Source: an uncultured Gemmatimonadales bacterium
GTDB taxonomy: Bacteria > Gemmatimonadota > Gemmatimonadetes > Gemmatimonadales > Gemmatimonadaceae
Assembly (NCBI GenBank): GCA_963851265.1
Contig: CAWKNZ010000002.1
Coordinates: 544,001-608,000 of the forward strand
Length of the DNA stretch: 64,000 bases
Reading direction: 5' to 3'
The notes under the pieces are model-generated. The model had not been told where the DNA came from and made no database searches. It saw only the letters and a program-made list of their open reading frames with translations. The position numbers and the translations under genes were made by a program. Below are positions 7,003 through 51,775 of the stretch, one piece after another. Positions within the stretch are counted from its first letter, which is position 1. Every line of letters starts with the position of its first letter.

Positions 7003-7911
7003 TCAGTTCGTGTTGTACGCCGAACGGATCAGGAGCAGCAAACTCGTGAGCGCCGAAATCCCGAAGAAAATGCTCGTCGCGCTCGGGAACCGGCTCCCCT
7101 TCGGCTCGTCGATCCGGACTTCGTCGCCGGACCGAATACCGAGGTCGTCGAGGGTGCGGCCGTCGCGGATCGCGACCTGGACCGCCTTCGTATCGTACAG
7201 CTGCTTCGACCCTCGACTCACCGTCATGCGCCCCTTCTTCTGGTTCGCGGCGCCGGGACCACCGGCGAGCGTGATCGCGTCGGCGAGCTGCCGGTCCGGA
7301 TCGACGGTGTAGTACCCGGGGCGGGGAACGGACCCGATGATCGCCACGCGCGTGAGCGGGACCACGCGAAGCCGCGGGTCGCGCACGTACTTCCGCTCGT
7401 ACTCGGCGACGGTGTTGGGCAGTTCGGACCGGAGGACGCCATTCAGCGGCGCGTCGGCCCACGTGTTGAGTGAGAACACCGGGCCCGTCGGGGCGTCGCG
7501 CACGATCACGGTGTCGCCACCCGTTCCCGGCCGGCCGAGCAGGAGGTCCTGGATGAGGAAGCGATCGCCCGAGCGAAAATCGCCTAGGGTCAGACGGCGC
7601 CGGATTTCGTCGACTTCGTCGCGGCGCGACTTGCCCGCGTTGCTCACCGTGTCGAGGCGGGCGAGCGAGTCGAGACGTGTCGTCAGCTGCGACCGGGTCG
7701 CATCGGGCGTGTACGCGGTCACGGACGTCGGCACCGGCCGCTCGCTGAGCACCGCGGCCACCTGGGGTGCCGGCTGTGGCGATTGCGTCTGCTGCGGCTG
7801 TACGGGGGCCTGCGCGAACGCCACTCCCGCCGGGGCGAGCAGCGCGGCGCACAGGCCGGCCCGCCAGCACTGGGCGAGCAACCCGCGGCAGAAGACGAAG
7901 TAAGGCATCAT
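7003..7911 (-). CDS. Polysaccharide export protein with SLBB domain (Wza/OPX-like)
   Basis: Signal peptide (AFA|Q), VAIIGSVPRPGYY, LADAITLAGG, IRSGDEVRI, C-terminal hydrophobic helix; next to a wzc-like gene. Confidence 0.8.
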   Translation of the reverse strand: MMPYFVFCRGLLAQCWRAGLCAALLAPAGVAFAQAPVQPQQTQSPQPAPQVAAVLSERPVPTSVTAYTPDATRSQLTTRLDSLARLDTVSNAGKSRRDEVDEIRRRLTLGDFRSGDRFLIQDLLLGRPGTGGDTVIVRDAPTGPVFSLNTWADAPLNGVLRSELPNTVAEYERKYVRDPRLRVVPLTRVAIIGSVPRPGYYTVDPDRQLADAITLAGGPGAANQKKGRMTVSRGSKQLYDTKAVQVAIRDGRTLDDLGIRSGDEVRIDEPKGSRFPSATSIFFGISALTSLLLLIRSAYNTN

Positions 7912-8109
7912 AGAATCGGATGGGAAACGGCCGTGCGCATCACCGGCTCGGTCGTCGCCACGCGTTTATCGTACCGCCGCCGGTGCCTCACGGCAATGAA
8001 TGTCGGCATGCAGCAAGGAAAAAGTAGCGTCACGAAACCGCGCCGTGCCGCACACGACGCGCGTCACGGCCGGGTCGTAGCATCGACGCTTCGCCCCGGC
8101 CGCGGCGCG

Positions 8110-10593
8110 CTAGCGGCCTGCCGTCTCGCGCGCGTCGTCGCGCGCCGACGCGGTCTCGCCCGGGAGCAGGGGCTGCTCGGGCGCCGTGTCGTCGACGACG
8201 ACGTAGTCAGGATCGTACGAGTAGTACTGGTACATGTTCGTCTCGGTCCCCACGCCGTTGAGGATCGCGCCCGCGACGGCGACGGGAAGGTGGTCGAAGA
8301 TCTTGAGCTTCGCCTTCGCGAGCCGCACGTCGGTGACGCCGCTACGGAGGACGACGGCGAGCTGGCCGCACGCGGTGCCGACGGCGTAGGCGTCGGTGCC
8401 AGCGCCTAACGGCGGCGTGTCGACGATGATCGCGTCGTGGTCGGCGCCGAGAGCGGCGAGCAGCTGCGGCAGGCGCGCGGTGGCGAGCAGCTCGGGGGCC
8501 CGGCGGTGCCGCTGACCGCCCGGCACGACCCAGAGGTTCTCGTGCCCCGTAGGGTGCACGACCTCCGACAGGAGGCTCGTGCCCTCGAGATACTCGACGA
8601 GCCCCGGCGACGCGGGGAGGTCGAACGTGCCGTTGAGCTGACCGCGGCGCACGTCGGCGTCGACGAGCACGGTCTTCCACCCGCCCTGCGCAAAGGCGAG
8701 CGCGAGGTTACTCGCGATGAGGGATTTCCCGTCGCCGGCGCCGGGGCTGGTGATCCCGATCGCGACCGGTTGGTTGGGCGCTGCGGCGTATCGCACGTTG
8801 AGGCGCAGCGCGCGGAACGCCTCGACGATCTGCGCCGCGCGCTCGGCGGACTGCCTGCCGCGGCCGTCATCGATGCGAGGTACGACGCCGAGCACCGAAA
8901 GGCCGAGCTCGCGCGTGACCTGTTCGGGGTAGCGGAAGCGGCGGTCGAGGATGTCGAGGAGGAGGGCCAGCACGACGCCGAGGGCTAGGCCCCCCGCGGT
9001 CGCGAGCGCGACGAGGCGGCTGCCGGTGCTGCTGGACGGCGTGAGCGGCATCACCGCCGAGTCGAGGACCTTGACGTCCGGCACCGAGGCCTGCTGTGCG
9101 AGGCTCGCGCCCGCGTAGTCGGACCGGAGGCGCGAATAAATGTCACCCTGCACCGAGACCTCGCGCCGGAGCGCGCCCTCGGCGGTGGTCCGAGCTGGGA
9201 TGGACTGCAGTTCGCGGGTCGCGGCGCCGAGTTGCTGCTGGACCGACGCCTCGCGGGTCTTCAGTGCGCCGATAAAGGCGTTGTTCTGCCGCAGCACGTT
9301 CTCGCGCGCGGCCGCGACGGCCTGCCGCTGGATCTTGACCGACGGCTCGGAATCGGTGAAGACGATTCGCGCCTTGTCGAGCTTGGTCTGTTGCTCGTTG
9401 TAGTCGGCGATGGCGGCCTTGAGCGGCGCCGCGCCCGGATCGCGGGCGACCGTGCTCACCGAATTGATGGCATCGACCGGCAGCGGACCGCCGGTCCGGA
9501 TCTGCTGCCCGATGCGCTCCAGCTGCTCGCGATCCGTGCGCGTCCCGTCGAGTTCGATCTTGCGAATCGCGAAGTTGTTGATCACCGGATCGCGCGTCAC
9601 CGTACCACCGCCGTTCGCGTCGCCCGCCGACACGACGACCTCCGACGGCTGCGTGATCGCGCCGACGCGGAACTGCTCGAGCGCGCGCTCCGACCCCTCG
9701 AGCTTCTGGCGCGCGGCTTCGAGCTGCGCGGCCAGCGTCGTCGCCTGCTGGTTCAGCTCGCGCTTCTTCAGATCGGTGGCGACGGTCACGAACTGGTCGA
9801 GCATCGCGTTCAGCGTCGCGGCCGGCCGCTGCTCGGCCGTCCCGTGCAGGCGCAGGTAGATGATCGGACTGCGCTCGTCGACGAACACGCCGAAGCGGTT
9901 GAGGACGTCGATGGTTGCTTCGCGCGGCGTGACCACCGTGAACTCGACCGACCGCTTGGCACTGCCGACCACATTGGCGCGCGGCGCCCACGCGAAGCCG
10001 GCCTTCCGGCCGATAGAGTCGCCGACGACTCCGGACTCGTTGACGGCGCCGACCTTGTCGGTCAGCGTCCAGCGTCCGGCGTTGACGTTGAGCGTGTAGT
10101 CGCCCGGGAAAAACCGATTCTGCGTGCGGTCGATCCCGAAGTTCGCGAACAGCAGCGAGTCGGACGCGTGCTGCGGACGGACGTAGAGCGCGAGTCGCAG
10201 CACCACGGGATCGGTGATCGCCGGGGCGCGGAGCAGGTCGCGCCACCCGCTGATTTGCGTGAGCGCGCCGCCGCGGGCTGTCCCGCCCGATCCGCCGGTC
10301 TGTGCAGACGGGGTGGTGAAGACGTCGGCGTTGACATCGTACTCCGGAGTCACGAACCGGCCGGCGACGACGCCCCCGATCGCTCCGATTGCCGTCGTCG
10401 CGACAATGATCCACTTGAAGCGCTGGAGGGCGCTCGCCAGGCGGCCGACGGTGATCGCGCTCGCCAGACCGCCCTCTTCGGGCGGCGGTCCGTACGCGGC
10501 CGCGGGGTCATACCCCTGGAGGCCGGCTGGCTCGGCGGGGGCGGGCAGCGACGGCTCGCCGCCAATCGGGACGGGCGTCAGGTTCGCAGACAT
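8110..10593 (-). CDS. wzc: Polysaccharide co-polymerase / tyrosine autokinase (Wzc-like)
   Basis: Two TM segments around a coiled-coil domain, Walker A SPGAGDGKS, LVDADVRR, IIVDTPP, C-terminal Tyr cluster YQYYSYDPDY. Confidence 0.92.
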   Translation of the reverse strand: MSANLTPVPIGGEPSLPAPAEPAGLQGYDPAAAYGPPPEEGGLASAITVGRLASALQRFKWIIVATTAIGAIGGVVAGRFVTPEYDVNADVFTTPSAQTGGSGGTARGGALTQISGWRDLLRAPAITDPVVLRLALYVRPQHASDSLLFANFGIDRTQNRFFPGDYTLNVNAGRWTLTDKVGAVNESGVVGDSIGRKAGFAWAPRANVVGSAKRSVEFTVVTPREATIDVLNRFGVFVDERSPIIYLRLHGTAEQRPAATLNAMLDQFVTVATDLKKRELNQQATTLAAQLEAARQKLEGSERALEQFRVGAITQPSEVVVSAGDANGGGTVTRDPVINNFAIRKIELDGTRTDREQLERIGQQIRTGGPLPVDAINSVSTVARDPGAAPLKAAIADYNEQQTKLDKARIVFTDSEPSVKIQRQAVAAARENVLRQNNAFIGALKTREASVQQQLGAATRELQSIPARTTAEGALRREVSVQGDIYSRLRSDYAGASLAQQASVPDVKVLDSAVMPLTPSSSTGSRLVALATAGGLALGVVLALLLDILDRRFRYPEQVTRELGLSVLGVVPRIDDGRGRQSAERAAQIVEAFRALRLNVRYAAAPNQPVAIGITSPGAGDGKSLIASNLALAFAQGGWKTVLVDADVRRGQLNGTFDLPASPGLVEYLEGTSLLSEVVHPTGHENLWVVPGGQRHRRAPELLATARLPQLLAALGADHDAIIVDTPPLGAGTDAYAVGTACGQLAVVLRSGVTDVRLAKAKLKIFDHLPVAVAGAILNGVGTETNMYQYYSYDPDYVVVDDTAPEQPLLPGETASARDDARETAGR

Positions 10594-13747: not shown

Positions 13748-13943
13748 CGGCGGTCGCTCGCGGCCGTGAGAGGAGGCCGTGAGTGGAGCCGGTCTTGTGG
13801 GCACGATGCTGGGCACCACCCCGGACTACCCGATCACGGTCCGGCTCGCCATTGTATGGCGGGAGCGGCGCCCGTGTCGCCGCAGGGCAGTGCGCGGGAG
13901 CGAGGCCGGCGCAGTGTGTAGCTCCCTCCTCGCGGGATCGAGC

Positions 13944-15212
13944 GTGTCAGCTACTGTCGTGCGGCCTCGCGCAGGTGCCCGTGCGTCTGAGCGCGGGCCT
14001 GCGCGGTCAGCCGACGCCCAAGTGGAGGCCGCGAACCGTCCGGCGCGCCGTGATCTCGCGCTCGACGGACTGCGGGGACTCGCCGCACTGTCCGTCGTGA
14101 TCCACCACGCCGTGCTTGCGCTACCGTGGAGCGGGGCGGCGATCTACGATCCCGCCGGGCGCTGGTCGTCGATCCCCGGAATCGGGCCACTGAACGTGGT
14201 GTGGGCGGGGCACGAAGCCGTGCTGCTGTTCTTCGTTCTGAGTGCGTTCGTGCTCGTCGTGCGGTACGGAGTGGCCCGCCGACGGGAGTACTGGGCGTAC
14301 GTCGCACAGCGCGTCCCGCGGCTGTACGTGCCGTATGCCGTGGCGGTCGGACTCTCGTGTGCGCTGCTCACGCTGTGGCACCCGCCGCGAGCGGCGGGCG
14401 TGAGCGCATGGTTCGGCGCGATGTGGTCCGATCCGGTCACGCCGTCCATGTTGTTCGACTTGGCAGTGATGCAAGCTGGCGCCGCTCACAACGTCGACAC
14501 CTCCACATGGAGCCTCGGCGTCGAAATGCGGTTCTCGCTGTTGCTGCCGCTGTTCGCGGCGGCGGCCGTTCGGCTTCCGCTCTGGCGCGGTATCGCCGGC
14601 GCGGTCGTGCTCGCCGGCGCGGTGCACTTTGCCACGGCACGTTGGGCGTGGACGAGCAGCGGGCTGTATTACGCCCCGGTCTTCCTCGCCGGTGCGATCC
14701 TGGCGACGCACCGAGATCGTGTCACGGCCGACGCCGCTCGCCTGTCCCGTGCGGCGGCCGCCGCGCTGCTCGTTGTCGCGCTCGTCTGTTACACGTGGCG
14801 TTGGGAGATCACCGCGTGGTGGCCGTACGTCGCGCGAGCGGTCGCGGGAGGCGCGCACCGCGGGTCGCCGCCCCGGCTTCTCGTAGCGACGCTCGCCGAC
14901 GTCGTTCCGGTGATCGGGAGCATGGGACTGATCGTGCTCGCCATCGGAAACGGCCTCGTACGGCACACGCTCGAGCGGCCATGGGCGGAGTGGCTCGGGC
15001 GCATCTCCTTCAGCCTCTACCTCGTGCATCCCCTGGTCCTGCTGACCGTCGTGCATGGGTTGAACGGGCTGGTGTCTCCAACGGCGGCCGTCGTGCTTGC
15101 CGTCCTGGCTTCGTTCCCGGCCGCCGTGGTCGCGTACCACGCGATCGAGCTCCCGAGCCATCGTCTCGCACGCGCTGCGGGTCGCTGGGCCGCGCGTAGG
15201 GTCACGCCGTGA
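13944..15212 (+). CDS. Acyltransferase family 3 (OafA-like membrane O-acyltransferase)
   Basis: LDGLRGLAALSVVIHH, VLLFFVLSAF, WSLGVEMRFS, LGRISFSLYLVH, YHAIELP; start uncertain (13779, 13944 or 14022). Confidence 0.92.
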   Translation: MSATVVRPRAGARASERGPARSADAQVEAANRPARRDLALDGLRGLAALSVVIHHAVLALPWSGAAIYDPAGRWSSIPGIGPLNVVWAGHEAVLLFFVLSAFVLVVRYGVARRREYWAYVAQRVPRLYVPYAVAVGLSCALLTLWHPPRAAGVSAWFGAMWSDPVTPSMLFDLAVMQAGAAHNVDTSTWSLGVEMRFSLLLPLFAAAAVRLPLWRGIAGAVVLAGAVHFATARWAWTSSGLYYAPVFLAGAILATHRDRVTADAARLSRAAAAALLVVALVCYTWRWEITAWWPYVARAVAGGAHRGSPPRLLVATLADVVPVIGSMGLIVLAIGNGLVRHTLERPWAEWLGRISFSLYLVHPLVLLTVVHGLNGLVSPTAAVVLAVLASFPAAVVAYHAIELPSHRLARAAGRWAARRVTP

Positions 15213-17332: not shown

Positions 17333-18091
17333 ATGAACATTCGCCGCCGCGTCGCCCTCTCGAACCACCCGCTCGGGGTCGCCGCCCGCCGCGCGTACCG
17401 GTCGTCGCTGAAAGTGCACGTTCCGGTACCGCGGCTGCTCGGCCGCGCGCTGCGCGTCGTCCACCATTCGGTGCGCGGCACGTACTACGGGGCGTACCGC
17501 CTTTTCGTGTGCGAGCCGCTCCTGCGCGCTGCCTCGACGTCGTACGGCCGGAACCTGCGGGGTGGAACGTTCATCCCGTGGGTGGTGGGCGGGGGCGACC
17601 TCGTGTTCGGCGACGACTGCGTGGTCGTCGGGAAGCTGAACGTGTGGTTCGCCACGCGTTTCTCGGACCGCCCAACGTTGACGATCGGTAACCGCACCGG
17701 GATCGGTCACGATTGCGCGTTCACCGTGGCGAAAGGGATCACGATCGGCGATGATTGCCACATCGCCGGCGGGACGCGGATGTTCGATTCGAGCGGGCAC
17801 CCGCTCGACCCGGAACGCCGACGTCTCGGCGAGCCGCCCGACGACGCCGACGTGAAGCCGATCACGATTGGCAACAACGTGTGGATCGGAGCGTACTCCA
17901 CGGTTTTTCCGGGCGTGACGATCGGCGAGAACAGCGTCGTCGCGACCGGGTCGGTGGTCACGGGCGACGTGCCGCCCAACACGCTCGTGGCCGGGTACCC
18001 GGCTCGACAGATCAAGAAGCTCGACGCCGCGGCGCCGCCCGCGACACCGTCATCGACGCGCCCGCACGTGGGCAGCCTGACACCCGCCTAA
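17333..18091 (+). CDS. Hexapeptide-repeat (LbH) acyltransferase, copy 1
   Basis: ITIGDDCHIAGG, DSSGHPLD, IGNNVWIG, PGVTIGENSVVATGSVVTGDVP, AGYPAR (MAT/GAT-like). Confidence 0.9.
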   Translation: MNIRRRVALSNHPLGVAARRAYRSSLKVHVPVPRLLGRALRVVHHSVRGTYYGAYRLFVCEPLLRAASTSYGRNLRGGTFIPWVVGGGDLVFGDDCVVVGKLNVWFATRFSDRPTLTIGNRTGIGHDCAFTVAKGITIGDDCHIAGGTRMFDSSGHPLDPERRRLGEPPDDADVKPITIGNNVWIGAYSTVFPGVTIGENSVVATGSVVTGDVPPNTLVAGYPARQIKKLDAAAPPATPSSTRPHVGSLTPA

Positions 18092-18105
18092 CCAGGCAAC
18101 CACAA

Positions 18106-18336
18106 ATGGAATCAGAAATCGATCGCATCGTCGCAATCGTCAAGCGAGTCGGCGAGATCGACGCGCTGGCGCCCGACCAGGATTTCTACCGCGCCGGTGT
18201 CGACTCGATGAAGGCGATGGACGTAATGCTCGACCTCGAGACGGAGTTTGGCGTCGCCGTGCCGGACGACAAGTTCGTCAAGGCGCGCACGCCCGAAGCG
18301 CTGCTGGCCCTCGTGCACGAGTTGCAGGCCGCCTGA
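18106..18336 (+). CDS. Acyl carrier protein (76 aa)
   Basis: Small acidic protein with GVDSM phosphopantetheine motif and LETEFGV. Confidence 0.9.
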   Translation: MESEIDRIVAIVKRVGEIDALAPDQDFYRAGVDSMKAMDVMLDLETEFGVAVPDDKFVKARTPEALLALVHELQAA

Positions 18337-18383
18337 CACCGTGCGGCGTCCCGCCACGCCGCGCAGCGCCTGCTCTGCTCCGC

Positions 18384-19154
18384 ATGATCAATCTTCGACG
18401 CGCGATCGCTCTGGGCGAGACGCCACTGACGCGCTCAGCGCGGCGTCTGTATCGGGGGTTCCGGCGGTTCCACCTTCCTGTTCCGCGCGCGATCGGCCGT
18501 CCGCTGTTTCTTACCTTCCGAGCACTCCGCGGTGCGTACTACGGGGGGTACCGGCTGCTCGTGTGCGAGCCGCTTTTCAAGGCCGCGTGCAGGTCGTACG
18601 GGCGGAACGTGCAGACGGGCGTATTCGTGCACTTCGTGCTTGGTGACGGCGACATCGTCGTTGGCAGCGATACGCTGGTCGACGGAAAGAGCAGTTTCGT
18701 GTTCGGCGCACGTTTCGCCGAACGGCCGACGCTATCGATCGGAGCGCGCACGTACGTTGGACACGATTGCACGTTTTCGACGTCCAAACAGATCAGCATT
18801 GGCGACGATTGCTACATCGCTTCGGGTTGCCACTTTCTCGACTCGCCGGGTCATCCGCTGGACCCCGGCCGCCGGCTCGCGCATCTACCACCTGATCCTG
18901 AGCAGGTCCGAGAGGTCGCAGTCGGCAACAACGTGTGGATCGGAACGCAGGCCATGATCATGCCGGGGGTGACGATCGGCGAGGGAAGTGTCGTCGCGGC
19001 CCGCGCGGTCGTGACTTCTGACGTTCCGGCGTACACGCTCGTCGGCGGCGTGCCGGCGCGTGCGCTGAAAACGCTCGCCCCTATCGACGAGTCTCGGGCG
19101 CCGGCCAACGCGCCGTCCGCGGGACGCGATCAGGCGCACGCTCACATCGCATAA
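18384..19154 (+). CDS. Hexapeptide-repeat (LbH) acyltransferase, copy 2
   Basis: Clear paralog of 17333..18091 (YYGGYRLLVCEPL vs YYGAYRLFVCEPL; DSPGHPLDP; NNVWIG). Confidence 0.9.
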   Translation: MINLRRAIALGETPLTRSARRLYRGFRRFHLPVPRAIGRPLFLTFRALRGAYYGGYRLLVCEPLFKAACRSYGRNVQTGVFVHFVLGDGDIVVGSDTLVDGKSSFVFGARFAERPTLSIGARTYVGHDCTFSTSKQISIGDDCYIASGCHFLDSPGHPLDPGRRLAHLPPDPEQVREVAVGNNVWIGTQAMIMPGVTIGEGSVVAARAVVTSDVPAYTLVGGVPARALKTLAPIDESRAPANAPSAGRDQAHAHIA

Positions 19155-19168
19155 GTAGAGGGCGGATT

Positions 19169-20191
19169 ATGGACGCGTTCGTTACCGCGCTGACGTACGT
19201 GCTCCCGGAGAAGGTGGTCACCAACGACGACCTTCAGGCGGAGAACACGGATTGGGACATGGCGCGCATCGGCGGCAAGGTCGGCATCACGAGGCGACAC
19301 ATCGCGGCCGAGGACGAGACGTCGTCAGATCTCGCGTACGAAGCCGGCCGCAAGCTGCTCGACGCGACCGGGATCGATCGGGCGAGTATCGACTGCCTGA
19401 TCTTCTGCACGCAAACGCCCGACCACGTGTTGCCGACAAGCGCGTGCATCCTCCAACAGAGACTCGGGCTGGGTACGCACGTCGCGGCGTTCGATTTCAA
19501 CCAGGGTTGTTCGGGCTACATCTACGGGCTCGGGATCGCGAAGGCGTTCATCGCGGCGGGGATGGCGAAGCGCGTCCTGTTTCTGACGGGCGAGACGTAC
19601 TCGAAACTCGTTCACCCGCGCGACCGGACCGTGCGCGTGCTGTTCGGCGACGCGGGGTCGGCGACGCTCATCACCGCCGAACCCGGCGGTGCGCGCATCG
19701 GGGCCGTACGTCTCGGGTCCGACGGCAGCGGGGCGGAGAATCTGATGGTTCGCGCTGGCGGCTTCAGGCGCGCGCGCACGGCGGCGACGAGCGTCGAAAC
19801 GACGGACGAGATCGGGTGCACGCGCACTGACGAGCACCTATTCATGGACGGCCAGGCGATCACCGTGTTCGCGCTGCAGCGCGTCCCGCTACTGATCGAC
19901 GAGACGCTCAAGGAGGCGGGACTCGCTCCGGACGCGGTCGACCATTTCGTGTTTCACCAGGCGAACGCGTTCATGAACGAGCGCCTACGAACGCGACTGA
20001 AAGTGCCTGCCGAGAAGGTGCCGACTTTCATGGAGTCGGTCGGCAACACGGTCGTGAACACGATCCCGATCGTTCTGCGCGAGTCGGGCGCACGATTCAC
20101 GGCTGGTCAGCGCGTTCTCGCCGTGGGTTTCGGCGTCGGCTATTCGTGGGGTGCGGCGGTGTTGGACTGGGGCGACGTCCAGCTGGTGTAG
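19169..20191 (+). CDS. 3-oxoacyl-ACP synthase III-like (FabH family)
   Basis: Cys-His-Asn triad in QGCSG, FHQAN, VGNT; LFGDAG; GFGVGYSWG. Confidence 0.93.
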   Translation: MDAFVTALTYVLPEKVVTNDDLQAENTDWDMARIGGKVGITRRHIAAEDETSSDLAYEAGRKLLDATGIDRASIDCLIFCTQTPDHVLPTSACILQQRLGLGTHVAAFDFNQGCSGYIYGLGIAKAFIAAGMAKRVLFLTGETYSKLVHPRDRTVRVLFGDAGSATLITAEPGGARIGAVRLGSDGSGAENLMVRAGGFRRARTAATSVETTDEIGCTRTDEHLFMDGQAITVFALQRVPLLIDETLKEAGLAPDAVDHFVFHQANAFMNERLRTRLKVPAEKVPTFMESVGNTVVNTIPIVLRESGARFTAGQRVLAVGFGVGYSWGAAVLDWGDVQLV

Positions 20192-20945
20192 TCCCCGCGG
20201 GAGCATCGGAGGCGCTGCGTTCATCGCGCCGCGATGCGGCGGGGCACCCGAGCGCCGCGTGCGTCGCGCACTGCGGCCGGACGGGGCACAGTTCGCAACG
20301 CCGCACCCGAGCCGTGCAGACGATCGCGCCGAGTTCCATCAGCGCCTGGTTGTGCGTCCAGGCGGCGCGGCCGGTCCGCGGTAAAATGATTTCGGCGAGG
20401 CGCCAGATCCGCGCGAGGTCGCGCGGCCGCTTGGGGTCAAGCTCGGGTGCGAATACGCGCGCGAGCACCCGGCCGACGTTCGTGTCGACGAGCGCGGTAC
20501 GGCGTTCGTAGGCGAAGCTGGCCACGGCGCCCGCGGTGTACGCGCCGACGCCCGGCAGTTGCCGGAGAGCCGCGGGTTCGGCGGGGATGTCGCCGTGGCC
20601 GGAAGCGTTGGTCACCTGGCGCGCGAGCGCGTGCAGATTGCGGGCGCGCGCGTAATACCCGAGGCCGGCCCACGCGCCGGTCACGTGCTCGACCGGGGCT
20701 TCGGCCACGTGGCCTAACGTGGGGAAGCGCTCGAGGAATCGCGCGTAGTAGTCGACCACGCGCGCGACCTGAGTTTGCTGGAGCATGAATTCCGAGACGA
20801 TGACGCGGTACGGGTCGCGCGTCTGGCGCCACGGCAGGTCCCGGCCCGACTGGCGGAACCACGCGCGCAGGCGGCGGCCGAAGGCCTGGGCTCGGACGGC
20901 GTCGATCGCGGGCTCGTCGCCCGGGCGGACGCCGCGTCGGCTCAC
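20097..20945 (-). CDS. mutY: A/G-specific adenine glycosylase (short form)
   Basis: DLPWR, VSEFMLQQT, WAGLGYYARARN, HhH LPGVGAYTA, VDTNV, 4Fe-4S C-x6-C-x2-C-x5-C; GTG overlaps the upstream stop. Confidence 0.9.
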   Translation of the reverse strand: MSRRGVRPGDEPAIDAVRAQAFGRRLRAWFRQSGRDLPWRQTRDPYRVIVSEFMLQQTQVARVVDYYARFLERFPTLGHVAEAPVEHVTGAWAGLGYYARARNLHALARQVTNASGHGDIPAEPAALRQLPGVGAYTAGAVASFAYERRTALVDTNVGRVLARVFAPELDPKRPRDLARIWRLAEIILPRTGRAAWTHNQALMELGAIVCTARVRRCELCPVRPQCATHAALGCPAASRRDERSASDAPAGTTPAGRRPSPTPPHPTNSRRRNPRRERADQP

Positions 20946-21565
20946 GCCGGCTCGGAGGCCTGAGCGGCGCCGGGCACCCGCTTCACGACACGCGCCGGGT
21001 TTCCGGCGATGATCGAGTCCGCCGGGTACGTACCGGCGCAGACGGCCCCGTAGCCCACGACCGAGTTGCGCCCGATGCGCGTTCCGGGCAGGACCCCCAC
21101 GGCGGAGCCGAGCCACACGTTCTCGTCGAGCACGACCGGCGAGACGCGGACGGGGGCGTCCGGGTTGTGCCGGTCGACGTGCGTGCTGTGGGCGTTCGTG
21201 TCGGCGATCGACGCGTCGCTCAGGATCGCGCGCGGGCCGATCGTGATACGTTCGCTGCAGCCGAACCGCGTACCGTTGAGGTAGCTGTGGCTGCCGATCT
21301 CGATGACGGCGTCGCGCGTGTTGGTCCACGGCGTGACGACGCGTTCGATGTTGACGTGGTCGCCGAACACGACGCGGCCGGGCCCGCGGATGACGAGTCG
21401 GCCCGCGACGCGGAAGTGCTTGCCCGCCGACACGCGACGGCCGAGCGCCCTACACCAGAGAATCGTCCATCGACCGCGGGCCAGTGCGACGACTTCTGTT
21501 ATCGCCGCACCCGGGTTGGCGAGCCCTTTCCTGAACTTCGATCGCTTCGGTCGAACGTTGCTCAC
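20942..21565 (-). CDS. Hexapeptide-repeat (LbH) acyltransferase, copy 3
   Basis: ITIGPRAIL, DTNAH, ENVWLG, PGTRIGRNSVVG, AGNPARVVK. Confidence 0.88.
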   Translation of the reverse strand: MSNVRPKRSKFRKGLANPGAAITEVVALARGRWTILWCRALGRRVSAGKHFRVAGRLVIRGPGRVVFGDHVNIERVVTPWTNTRDAVIEIGSHSYLNGTRFGCSERITIGPRAILSDASIADTNAHSTHVDRHNPDAPVRVSPVVLDENVWLGSAVGVLPGTRIGRNSVVGYGAVCAGTYPADSIIAGNPARVVKRVPGAAQASEPA

Positions 21566-51382: not shown

Positions 51383-51775
51383 GTGATCCTCGGCGTCGGG
51401 TTCGATCTCGTCGACATCGCGCGCGTCGCGGCGCTCCTCGAGTCCAAGGGCGAGCGCGCGGTCACGCGGCTGTTCTCACCCGCGGAGGCGGAGTACGCGC
51501 GGGCCCGCGCGGAGCCCGCACGCCACTTCGCCGCCCGATTTGCGGCGAAGGAGGCCGTGTACAAGGCGCTCGCCGGGACTGCGGAGGCGCGCGGCATCGG
51601 CTGGCGCGATACGGAGGTCGTGACCGCATGGGACGGGCGCCCGCAGGTCGTGCTGCACGGGCGCGCGGCCGAATGCGCGGCCGCGTTAGGTGTCGTGCGG
51701 GTGCACCTGTCGCTCACGCACGCCGAACTCGTCGCCGGCGCGGTGGTGGTGCTGGAGGGCGCGCCGCCGGCGTAG
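51383..51775 (+). CDS. acpS: Holo-[ACP] synthase
   Basis: GVGFDLV, AARFAAKEA.YKALA, GRP, LSLTH. Confidence 0.95.
   Translation: MILGVGFDLVDIARVAALLESKGERAVTRLFSPAEAEYARARAEPARHFAARFAAKEAVYKALAGTAEARGIGWRDTEVVTAWDGRPQVVLHGRAAECAAALGVVRVHLSLTHAELVAGAVVVLEGAPPA

What the first reader, a model, noticed from the sequence alone, without database searches (positions are those of the whole stretch)
17333..20191. Acyltransferase-ACP-acyltransferase-KS III cassette: candidate ACP-dependent glycan acylation system
Seen: four tightly packed genes (gaps 14, 47 and 14 nt). Two paralogous hexapeptide acyltransferases flank a dedicated ACP (GVDSM), followed by a FabH-like enzyme with an intact Cys-His-Asn triad; no reductase, dehydratase or ligase is in the cassette. 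It lies about 2 kb from a Wzc-type EPS locus and an AT3 acyltransferase. Established: MAT/GAT-like LbH enzymes normally use acyl-CoA, LpxA/LpxD-type LbH enzymes use acyl-ACP, and some KS III homologs act as acyl transferases. Inference: the KS III builds or loads a short (for example 3-oxo or 3-hydroxy) acyl group on the ACP and the LbH pair transfers it to an NDP-sugar or polysaccharide repeat unit. I do not recognise this arrangement as a characterised pathway.
Basis: partly seen in the sequence, partly recalled or inferred. Interest (0 to 1): 0.72.

Follow-up and report, generated by a model that had tools for sequence, protein, structure and literature searches.

The report
Carrier-protein acylation module near polysaccharide genes
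Four real genes in this bacterium most likely build a short acyl group on their own small carrier protein and attach it to a surface sugar, a variant of a route already known from Pseudomonas flagellin glycans but using a different class of transferase that relatives pair with several interchangeable loading enzymes.

Summary
The four genes, gaps (14/47/14 nt) and motifs are real. The ACP and KS III are not the housekeeping copies: a full fab operon lies elsewhere, at 25% and 32% identity. The KS III belongs to a clade that includes the Burkholderia glumae flagellin-island KS III (48%). An ACP + KS III + hexapeptide (LbH) transferase set for sugar acylation is already described in the Pseudomonas syringae viosamine island, so the logic is not new. 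Two corrections: wzc is 6.7 kb away, not 2 kb. And the two LbH genes are not a conserved pair. LbH1-ACP-KS III is a recurring module; LbH2 is the resident gene of this site (77% to a congener's copy; AU test rejects sisterhood). What is new: the transferase is MAT/GAT-like, not VioB-like. Its clade is fused to this ACP clade in at least 7 proteins. In relatives the adjacent loader is a KS III, an adenylation enzyme or an aminoacyl-tRNA-synthetase-like ligase, and congeners carry FkbH-ACP at the same site. Best reading: an acetoacetyl or 3-hydroxybutyryl group O-linked to a surface glycan (0.55). Acceptor and chemistry are untested. Verdict: new variant of a known kind, interest 0.42.

The parts
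17333..18091 (+). LbH1 (P0001): hexapeptide-repeat acyltransferase of the MAT/GAT fold class with a basic helical N-terminal extension; the LbH that travels with the ACP and KS III
   Evidence: Pfam Hexapep; best NCBIfam maltose O-acetyltransferase 95 bits, below cut-off 314; AF2 model pLDDT 93.9 with helices 3-67; Foldseek top hits MAT/GAT; His156, Trp184; clade with all 9 LbH hits that share a contig length with a KS III hit
18106..18336 (+). Dedicated acyl carrier protein (P0002), Ser34 in GVDSM; member of an ACP clade found beside or fused to this LbH clade
   Evidence: Pfam PP-binding 53 bits; 25% to own AcpP against 43-57% to LbH-adjacent ACPs of G004, G231, G429; fusions
18384..19154 (+). 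LbH2 (P0003): second acyltransferase of the same family; orthologue of the lone LbH gene at this site in congener G002
   Evidence: 53% to LbH1; 77% to the G002 gene behind citrate synthase; separate clade, SH-aLRT 99; AU p = 3e-9 against grouping with LbH1
19169..20191 (+). KS III (P0004), Cys114-His263-Asn293; non-housekeeping clade shared with the B. glumae flagellin-island KS III and PDB 3GWA
   Evidence: Pfam; below TIGR00747 fabH cut-off, 237.6 against 292.1; 32% to own FabH, 48% to the B. glumae island KS III; tree; PDB 3GWA E 1e-96 against 3e-53 for the best FabH-type chain
20942..21565 (-). Third LbH acyltransferase (P0005), behind mutY; context, resident at this site in relatives
   Evidence: Pfam Hexapep; 84%, 78% and 68% to copies in G002, G004 and G316 at the same site
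13779..15212 (+). AT3 family membrane acyltransferase; context, not shown to be part of the module (start codon probably downstream of 13779)
   Evidence: Pfam Acyl_transf_3 110 bits; no match at this position in the G001, G002, G004 or G316 stretches
7003..10593 (-). wza-like export gene (7003-7911) and wzc tyrosine kinase (8110-10593) of the neighbouring polysaccharide locus; context, likely source of the acceptor
   Evidence: SLBB/EpsE, TIGR01007 above cut-off
51392..51694 (+). holo-ACP synthase AcpS (matched stretch), candidate activator of the ACP; context
   Evidence: PF01648 above cut-off at G000:C2:595392-595694; TIGR00516 above cut-off

Best explanation
LbH1-ACP-KS III is a small acyl-donor module for decorating a surface glycan, working like the P. 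syringae Acp/VioS/VioB set without its own reductase. (1) AcpS or the genome's second PPTase primes Ser34 of the ACP (enzymes present; step inferred). (2) Housekeeping FabD loads malonyl in trans (gene present; step inferred). (3) The KS III condenses a short acyl-CoA, most simply acetyl-CoA, with malonyl-ACP to give acetoacetyl-ACP (triad shown; reaction inferred). (4) The group stays 3-oxo or is reduced in trans by FabG to 3-hydroxybutyryl (inferred). (5) LbH1, a His-dependent MAT/GAT-class trimer, takes the acyl group from the ACP and esterifies a sugar hydroxyl on a nucleotide sugar or lipid-linked repeat unit of the neighbouring Wzc/Wza polysaccharide (ACP partnership supported by fusions; O-linkage and acceptor inferred). 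LbH2 is the older resident transferase of the site; it may use the same donor or plain acetyl-CoA.
For: Separate complete fab operon plsX-fabH-fabD-fabG-acpP at G000:C2:1339942-1344205. KS III tree splits the P0004 clade (18 rows) from the FabH rows (15 rows, with the genome's own), SH-aLRT 100; the clade holds the B. glumae island KS III, whose neighbours are flagellin, vioA, ACP, SDR and acetyltransferase. Precedent: vioS/acp/vioR/vioB, with vioR and vioB mutants lacking the 3-hydroxybutyryl-viosamine (PMC3927599). Triad is Cys-His-Asn, not the Cys-His-Asp of the transferases ChlB3/CerJ (PMC9573744). LbH-ACP fusions with both Pfam domains in 7 proteins: P0068, P0112, P0117, P0328, P0352, P0294 and L115. 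G004 has LbH-ACP-KS III in order, KS III 69%. 9 of 120 LbH hits share a longest-contig length with one of 119 KS III hits, 8 of the top 16; offset control mean 1.1, maximum 4. At the same chromosomal site 3 of 4 congeners (G002, G003, G004) and G316 carry an LbH of this family plus FkbH and an ACP. 9 of 11 other close-clade LbH loci read have an ACP within 7 kb or fused.
Against: No biochemical or genetic data. No reductase in the cassette, whereas 5 of 9 more distant KS III clade loci read have an SDR beside the KS III (G033, G061, G077, G712, B. glumae; none seen in G557, G569, L121, L132, three of which are short contigs). The closest full copy (G004:C5) lies among relaxase, VirB4-like, integrase and IS genes with no polysaccharide genes seen in the 55 kb read, and has an extra adenylation enzyme that G000 lacks as an orthologue (best hits 33%, to NRPS domains). 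The LbH of that copy falls outside the LbH1 clade. 2 of 11 close-clade LbH loci (G410, G014) show no ACP in 20 kb, so the family can sit without one. wzc is 6.7 kb away and divergent. The contig-length match is indirect and gives no gene order.
Confidence: 0.55

Rival explanations
1. The KS III acts only as a transacylase that moves an acetyl or other short acyl group from CoA to the ACP; the LbH then adds a plain acyl ester to the glycan. Same module, no chain extension.
For: No reductase and no malonyl transferase in the cassette. In relatives the gene beside the ACP is a pure loader: adenylation enzyme, FAAL-like enzyme or aaRS-like ligase. KS III-fold acyltransferases exist (PMC9573744). 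The clade has HQANAF where the FabH rows have HQANxR; that this Arg docks ACP is recalled.
Against: The condensing-type Cys-His-Asn triad is intact, unlike ChlB3/CerJ. An ACP detour brings little for a plain acetyl group, which MAT/GAT enzymes take from CoA (recalled). In G004 the KS III sits beside a separate adenylation loader.
Confidence: 0.17
2. The cassette is an incomplete remnant of the A-domain-LbH-ACP-KS III unit that landed at this site. The ACP and KS III are idle, and the LbH enzymes work as ordinary acetyl-CoA-dependent polysaccharide O-acetyltransferases like SypM.
For: The G004 copy has an adenylation enzyme with no orthologue in G000. Distant members of the LbH family sit in ordinary EPS loci, with an ACP hit in only 1 of 14 such loci using four ACP queries. 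The best NCBIfam and PDB matches are CoA-dependent acetyltransferases.
Against: All four frames are intact with catalytic residues kept. Close orthologues of the KS III at 82-91% identity exist in several data sets. One shared contig length is only 2,252 bp, too short to hold a 1.7 kb adenylation gene besides LbH, ACP and KS III, though it could lie off the contig end. The ACP clade is fused to the LbH clade.
Confidence: 0.14
3. The module acylates something other than the neighbouring polysaccharide: a small molecule, a lipid, or a protein glycan such as flagellin.
For: The G004:C5 copy is in a mobile region with a beta-lactamase-family serine hydrolase downstream and no EPS genes seen. The nearest annotated KS III is in a flagellin island, and G000 has flagellin-family genes on another contig. 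MAT/GAT-class enzymes have broad small-molecule acceptors (recalled).
Against: G231 has LbH-ACP inside a polysaccharide locus, and most LbH family loci read contain glycosyltransferase, Wzy or Wzc genes. The home site in congeners carries glycosyltransferase, polysaccharide deacetylase or AT3 genes. No aminotransferase (vioA type) lies near the cassette; the four full-length DegT matches are elsewhere.
Confidence: 0.14

Closest known systems
Viosamine island of Pseudomonas syringae pv. tabaci 6605 (vioS KS III, acp, vioR, vioB, vioA) and P. aeruginosa PAK orfA-E; PMC3927599
   Same: Stand-alone ACP + KS III + acetyltransferase-type enzyme clustered to put a short acyl group (3-hydroxybutyryl) on a sugar. 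The window's KS III groups with the KS III of the like island in B. glumae.
   Different: No reductase, aminotransferase or glycosyltransferase in the cassette. The transferase is MAT/GAT-like, not NeuD/PglB/VioB: P0001 scores 53 bits on TIGR03570 (cut-off 160.8), the B. glumae enzyme 190, and they align over only 51 aa. Acceptor probably a hydroxyl on EPS, not an amino sugar on flagellin (inferred). VioS itself was not compared.
MAT/GAT-class hexapeptide O-acetyltransferases (Maa, LacA) and the SypM-type EPS O-acetyltransferase of Vibrio syp loci
   Same: LbH fold, His and Trp of the active site. Full-length 28% match to an LbH in an Oceanospirillum EPS locus that I read as syp-like by eye. 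SypM is described as an O-acetyltransferase (PMC5801674).
   Different: Below every NCBIfam cut-off; a 67-residue basic helical N-terminus; tied to a dedicated ACP. SypM itself was not compared, so the link to SypM is a lead.
LpxA/LpxD (acyl-ACP-dependent LbH enzymes of lipid A synthesis)
   Same: LbH transferase proposed to take its acyl group from an ACP (recalled for LpxA/LpxD).
   Different: Only weak repeat-level similarity (P0003 34 bits on TIGR01853, cut-off 242.5); not among the Foldseek hits listed; dedicated rather than housekeeping ACP.
KS III-fold acyltransferases CerJ / ChlB3 (PMC9573744)
   Same: KS III fold working with an ACP next to a sugar-acylation step.
   Different: They use Cys-His-Asp; P0004 keeps Cys-His-Asn.
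Vibrio cholerae O1 tetronate genes rfbK-O (recalled; also named in earlier finding e1-761397)
   Same: ACP + adenylating loader + transferase in a glycan locus, like the G004 and L115 variants.
   Different: Not tested here; no KS III in that route as I recall it.

Membership tests
Viosamine-island acylation system | Dedicated ACP and non-housekeeping KS III clustered with an acyltransferase | tested here: met
Viosamine-island acylation system | KS III related to the island type | tested here: met
   48% to the B. glumae island KS III and same side of an SH-aLRT 100 split; P. syringae VioS sequence not compared
Viosamine-island acylation system | 3-oxoacyl-ACP reductase (VioR) in the cluster | tested here: not met
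   none in or beside the cassette
Viosamine-island acylation system | VioB/NeuD-type N-acyltransferase | tested here: not met
   TIGR03570 53-55 bits against cut-off 160.8; 51-aa alignment only
Viosamine-island acylation system | Sugar aminotransferase (VioA) in the cluster | tested here: not met
   four full-length PF01041 matches, none near C2:561-564 kb
Housekeeping FabH/AcpP | Above fabH and acpP equivalog cut-offs, in the fab operon, grouping with FabH | tested here: not met
   TIGR00747 237.6 < 292.1 and TIGR00517 22.3 < 70.45; the genome's own copies pass; tree
KS III-like acyltransferases (CerJ/ChlB3) | Cys-His-Asp triad | tested here: not met
   Cys114-His263-Asn293
MAT/GAT-class LbH O-acyltransferases | LbH fold with catalytic His loop and conserved Trp | tested here: met
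MAT/GAT-class LbH O-acyltransferases | Acetyl-CoA as donor | not testable with these tools
   needs an enzyme assay; fusions to ACP point to another donor
SypM-type EPS O-acetyltransferase | Sequence orthology to V. fischeri SypM | not tested
   only a proxy was compared: 28% full-length to the LbH of a locus judged syp-like by eye
LpxA/LpxD | Family HMM and fold match | tested here: not met
ACP-dependent LbH transferase (functional claim) | Physical and catalytic use of acyl-ACP(P0002) | tested here: inconclusive

The most novel reading that the evidence does not exclude
A clade of MAT/GAT-class O-acyltransferases has switched from acetyl-CoA to its own ACP clade and forms a plug-in 'LbH-ACP' platform for ester decoration of bacterial exopolysaccharides. 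The cargo is set by whichever loader is next to it: KS III (3-oxo/3-hydroxy-acyl, this window), amino-acid adenylation enzyme (G004), fatty acyl-AMP ligase-like enzyme (L115) or SerRS-like amino acid:[carrier protein] ligase (G231, G429). The last would give that ligase family a downstream acceptor step.
Probability: 0.4. Interest if true: 0.65.

Novelty: new variant of a known kind. Interest (0 to 1): 0.42.

Why it matters
The genes behind many non-acetyl ester groups on bacterial polysaccharides are poorly known (my background knowledge). If LbH1 takes acyl-ACP, it would be a MAT/GAT-class O-acyltransferase using a carrier protein, and the loader gene beside the ACP would predict the substituent from sequence. 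The system is three small soluble proteins and can be tested in vitro. The surprise is moderate: ACP + KS III + transferase sets in glycan islands are already in print.

Tried and rejected
Conserved four-gene order: not seen in any locus read; LbH1 and LbH2 as recent tandem duplicates rejected. Housekeeping role rejected. Genome samples were sparse and scored only 6 candidates per genome, so they are lower bounds: A1 matched 11 of 401 in the own phylum at 1e-40, 1 of 401 (the centre itself) around G429 and 2 of 401 around G430 at 1e-65; P0004 matched 4 of 331 and 3 of 331 at 1e-62; P0002 matched 2 of 51 in the family, the second being an unrelated ACP domain with no LbH or KS III nearby. Search for longer fusions (442-2000 aa) of the LbH N-terminal part: none among 1101 candidates, weak evidence. 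First KS III tree held a mis-framed Ralstonia row; it was rebuilt without it and with fewer rows. Complex prediction LbH1 trimer + ACP: tool not available, nothing folded. Sequencing runs: no RNA holder listed; the one DNA holder gave short pieces, some 100% identical inside the cassette, none spanning it, and may be the source sample. Promoter/terminator scan: nothing above shuffles. Plasmid and phage searches: two KS III plasmid hits, otherwise Maa or FabH. Protein Atlas: only Hexapep clusters. Literature: 10 full-text searches; none listed a paper on this LbH-ACP-KS III module; three returned nothing, and subscription papers are largely missing. Four paper ids were not held. PMC4618531 proved irrelevant. 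Earlier scan notes by sequence and place: nothing.
Full report
Observation. Pfam gives Hexapep, PP-binding, Hexapep and ACP_syn_III. Catalytic residues are intact: KS III Cys114-His263-Asn293, ACP Ser34, LbH His156/157 and Trp184/185 (His and Trp align with maltose O-acetyltransferase; their roles are recalled). The LbH genes are 53% identical. The distance claim is half right: AT3 is 2.1 kb away, wzc 6.7 kb and divergent. A third LbH gene lies at 20942-21565 on the - strand. Homologues named and 58 point to Gemmatimonadaceae.

Not housekeeping. The genome has plsX-fabH-fabD-fabG-acpP, followed by a fabF-like ORF, at C2:1339942-1345464. P0004 is 32% identical to that FabH and P0002 25% to that AcpP. 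In a 33-row tree P0004 falls on the other side of an SH-aLRT 100 split from all 15 FabH-type rows, together with the KS III of a Burkholderia glumae cluster (48%) annotated flagellin, fliD, fliT, TPR, vioA, KS III, ACP, SDR, acetyltransferase. The best PDB match is 3GWA at E 1e-96 against 3e-53 for the best FabH-type chain. Among 60 relatives only G004 (69%) and G033 (45%) have this KS III type; all other hits are 38% or less.

What is conserved. The unit that recurs is LbH-ACP, often followed by KS III. G004:C5 has adenylation enzyme-LbH-ACP-KS III-serine hydrolase among relaxase, VirB4-like, integrase and IS genes. 9 of 120 LbH1 homologues share their longest-contig length with one of 119 KS III homologues, including 8 of the 16 best; shifting lengths gives a mean of 1.1 and a maximum of 4 matches over 400 offsets. 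This is indirect and gives no gene order. All 9 fall in one 13-row clade with LbH1 (SH-aLRT 97). The G004:C5 LbH does not, which shows partners have been swapped. The ACP belongs to its own clade: 43-57% to LbH-adjacent ACPs in G004, G231 and G429, 30% or less to the other ACP types tested. Seven proteins carry both this LbH and an ACP domain by Pfam (P0068, P0112, P0117 from 120 hits; L115; P0328, P0352, P0294); P0112 and P0117 are close kin. P0401 matches the LbH profile only and P0332 only by eye. The gene beside the ACP varies: KS III here; an amino-acid adenylation enzyme (TIGR01733 above cut-off) in G004; a fatty acyl-AMP-ligase-like enzyme in L115; and a SerRS-like amino acid:[ACP] ligase (NF005479 about 150 bits, below cut-off 357; PDB 3MEY E 6e-26) followed by a similar-length unannotated gene I read as GNAT-like in G231 and G429. 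G126 has an asparagine-synthase-like gene and a different ACP before the LbH. Of 11 other close-clade LbH loci read, 4 have this ACP type adjacent or fused, 3 another ACP type adjacent, 2 an FkbH-ACP pair 4.7-6.3 kb away, and 2 none in 20 kb. Of 14 more distant LbH loci, 1 gave an ACP hit with four queries, and 2 have a KS III of this clade nearby; several are short. These loci are related, so the counts are not independent.

The two LbH genes are not a pair. The stretch between citrate synthase and the vWA gene varies across the genus. G002 has a lone LbH 77% identical to LbH2 right behind citrate synthase, with FkbH and an ACP 4.7 kb on. G003 and G004 have another LbH of the family (46-49%) with an ACP, FkbH and a glyoxalase-fold gene. 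G001 has none. G316 has an LbH, the third LbH, a deacetylase, an ACP and FkbH. G000 has no full FkbH. LbH2 groups with the G002 gene (SH-aLRT 99-100), and holding LbH1 and LbH2 together is rejected, p-AU 3e-9 (the group was named after the first tree was seen). The simplest history, inferred, is that an LbH1-ACP-KS III module merged with the resident LbH2 at a site that in relatives holds a different ACP-based donor module. That swap at one site beside wzc/wza, glycosyltransferases, deacetylases and AT3 genes is the best argument for a glycan target.

Structure. The AF2 model of LbH1 (pLDDT 93.9) has three N-terminal helices (3-67) before the beta-helix. The first 70 residues carry a net charge of +12, the ACP -8; the helices are amphipathic, not transmembrane. 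They could bind membrane or ACP; neither is shown. Foldseek and profile searches rank maltose and galactoside O-acetyltransferases first. The enzymes are not VioB/NeuD-type N-acyltransferases, and no sugar aminotransferase is near, so O-acylation is the likelier chemistry. A complex with the ACP could not be predicted.

Mechanism. Most likely (0.55): holo-ACP (AcpS is in the window) is malonylated by FabD in trans; the KS III makes acetoacetyl-ACP; FabG may reduce it; LbH1 transfers the group to a sugar hydroxyl of the surface polysaccharide or its precursor. Shown: genes, residues, clades, fusions, neighbourhoods. Inferred: every reaction, the donor and the acceptor. Rivals: KS III as plain transacylase (0.17), idle remnant with CoA-dependent LbH enzymes (0.14), non-EPS acceptor (0.14). 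Against the main reading: no reductase, although 5 of 9 more distant KS III clade loci have an SDR; and the G004:C5 copy is not near polysaccharide genes and has a loader missing here.

Comparison with the known. PMC3927599 (passages and section 2.1 read) describes vioS (KS III), acp, vioR and vioB in the P. syringae viosamine island, homologous to P. aeruginosa PAK orfB-E. vioR and vioB mutants lose the 3-hydroxybutyryl-viosamine; vioS and acp mutants were not reported in what I read, so ACP use is inferred there too. The cassette works like that set but fails membership on reductase, aminotransferase and transferase class. PMC9573744 (passages) gives the Cys-His-Asp triad of KS III-fold transferases. 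PMC5801674 (passages) names SypM as an O-acetyltransferase. PMC3958885, PMC6594144 and PMC4618531 (passages) added only background. Supplements were not opened. Ten searches listed no paper on this module, but the library lacks most subscription journals. Earlier scan notes describe many other ACP-fed glycan acylation cassettes; they are unchecked and suggest the general theme is common.

Verdict. Real, dedicated and probably glycan-directed; a new variant of a known kind. The new element is a MAT/GAT-class transferase clade bound to its own ACP clade with interchangeable loaders. Interest 0.42; 0.65 if the platform reading (probability 0.4) holds.

Noticed in passing
L209:7240-10334 (G231) and L035:9980-13237 (G429, Acidobacteriaceae): Same cassette in two phyla: LbH, ACP, SerRS-like amino acid:[ACP] ligase, then an unannotated gene read as GNAT-like by eye; in G231 it lies inside a polysaccharide locus. 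A candidate downstream use for these ligases.
   Followed up: partly
window 20942-21565 (-): Third LbH acyltransferase overlapping the long mutY frame; conserved at this site in G002, G004 and G316 (68-84%).
   Followed up: partly
L244, L245, L246, L210 (G002, G003, G004, G316, site behind citrate synthase): FkbH + ACP (+ glyoxalase-fold or deacetylase genes) with LbH at the site where the window has ACP-KS III; in G003 and G004 the ACP gene is inverted relative to both neighbours.
   Followed up: partly
L031, L033, L034 (G004:C5:95000-150000): Adenylation enzyme-LbH-ACP-KS III-serine hydrolase among relaxase, VirB4-like, integrase and IS genes; genes resembling a contractile-tail cluster follow (read by eye).
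   Followed up: partly
G000:C2:103573-106070 (L247:13574-16071): A 587-aa LbH protein whose C-terminal part matches the first 139 positions of FkbH (below cut-off), next to another LbH, in a second EPS locus beside two NRPS/PKS genes and a second PPTase.
   Followed up: partly
G000:C2:530600-532289 (left of the window; L248): Exosortase and EpsI genes adjoin the polysaccharide locus, so it is of the PEP-CTERM/exosortase type; protein glycans are another possible acceptor.
   Followed up: partly
L220:11236-12337 (B. glumae record NZ_DQ996271.1): An unannotated second KS III-like gene between the ACP and the SDR appears split over two frames in this record.
   Followed up: no
window 19169-20191 against 20097-21329: The longest mutY frame overlaps the KS III end on the opposite strand; homology to relatives stops near residue 363-376, so the tail may be spurious or the genes converge with overlap.
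   Followed up: no
window 18384-19154: LbH2 has lower GC3 (0.75) than its neighbours (0.84-0.91) although it looks like the resident gene; unexplained.
   Followed up: no
P0417 (cluster of P0026): The LbH family reaches Planctomycetota: Isosphaera pallida Isop_0330, a cultured strain whose neighbourhood was not read.
   Followed up: no
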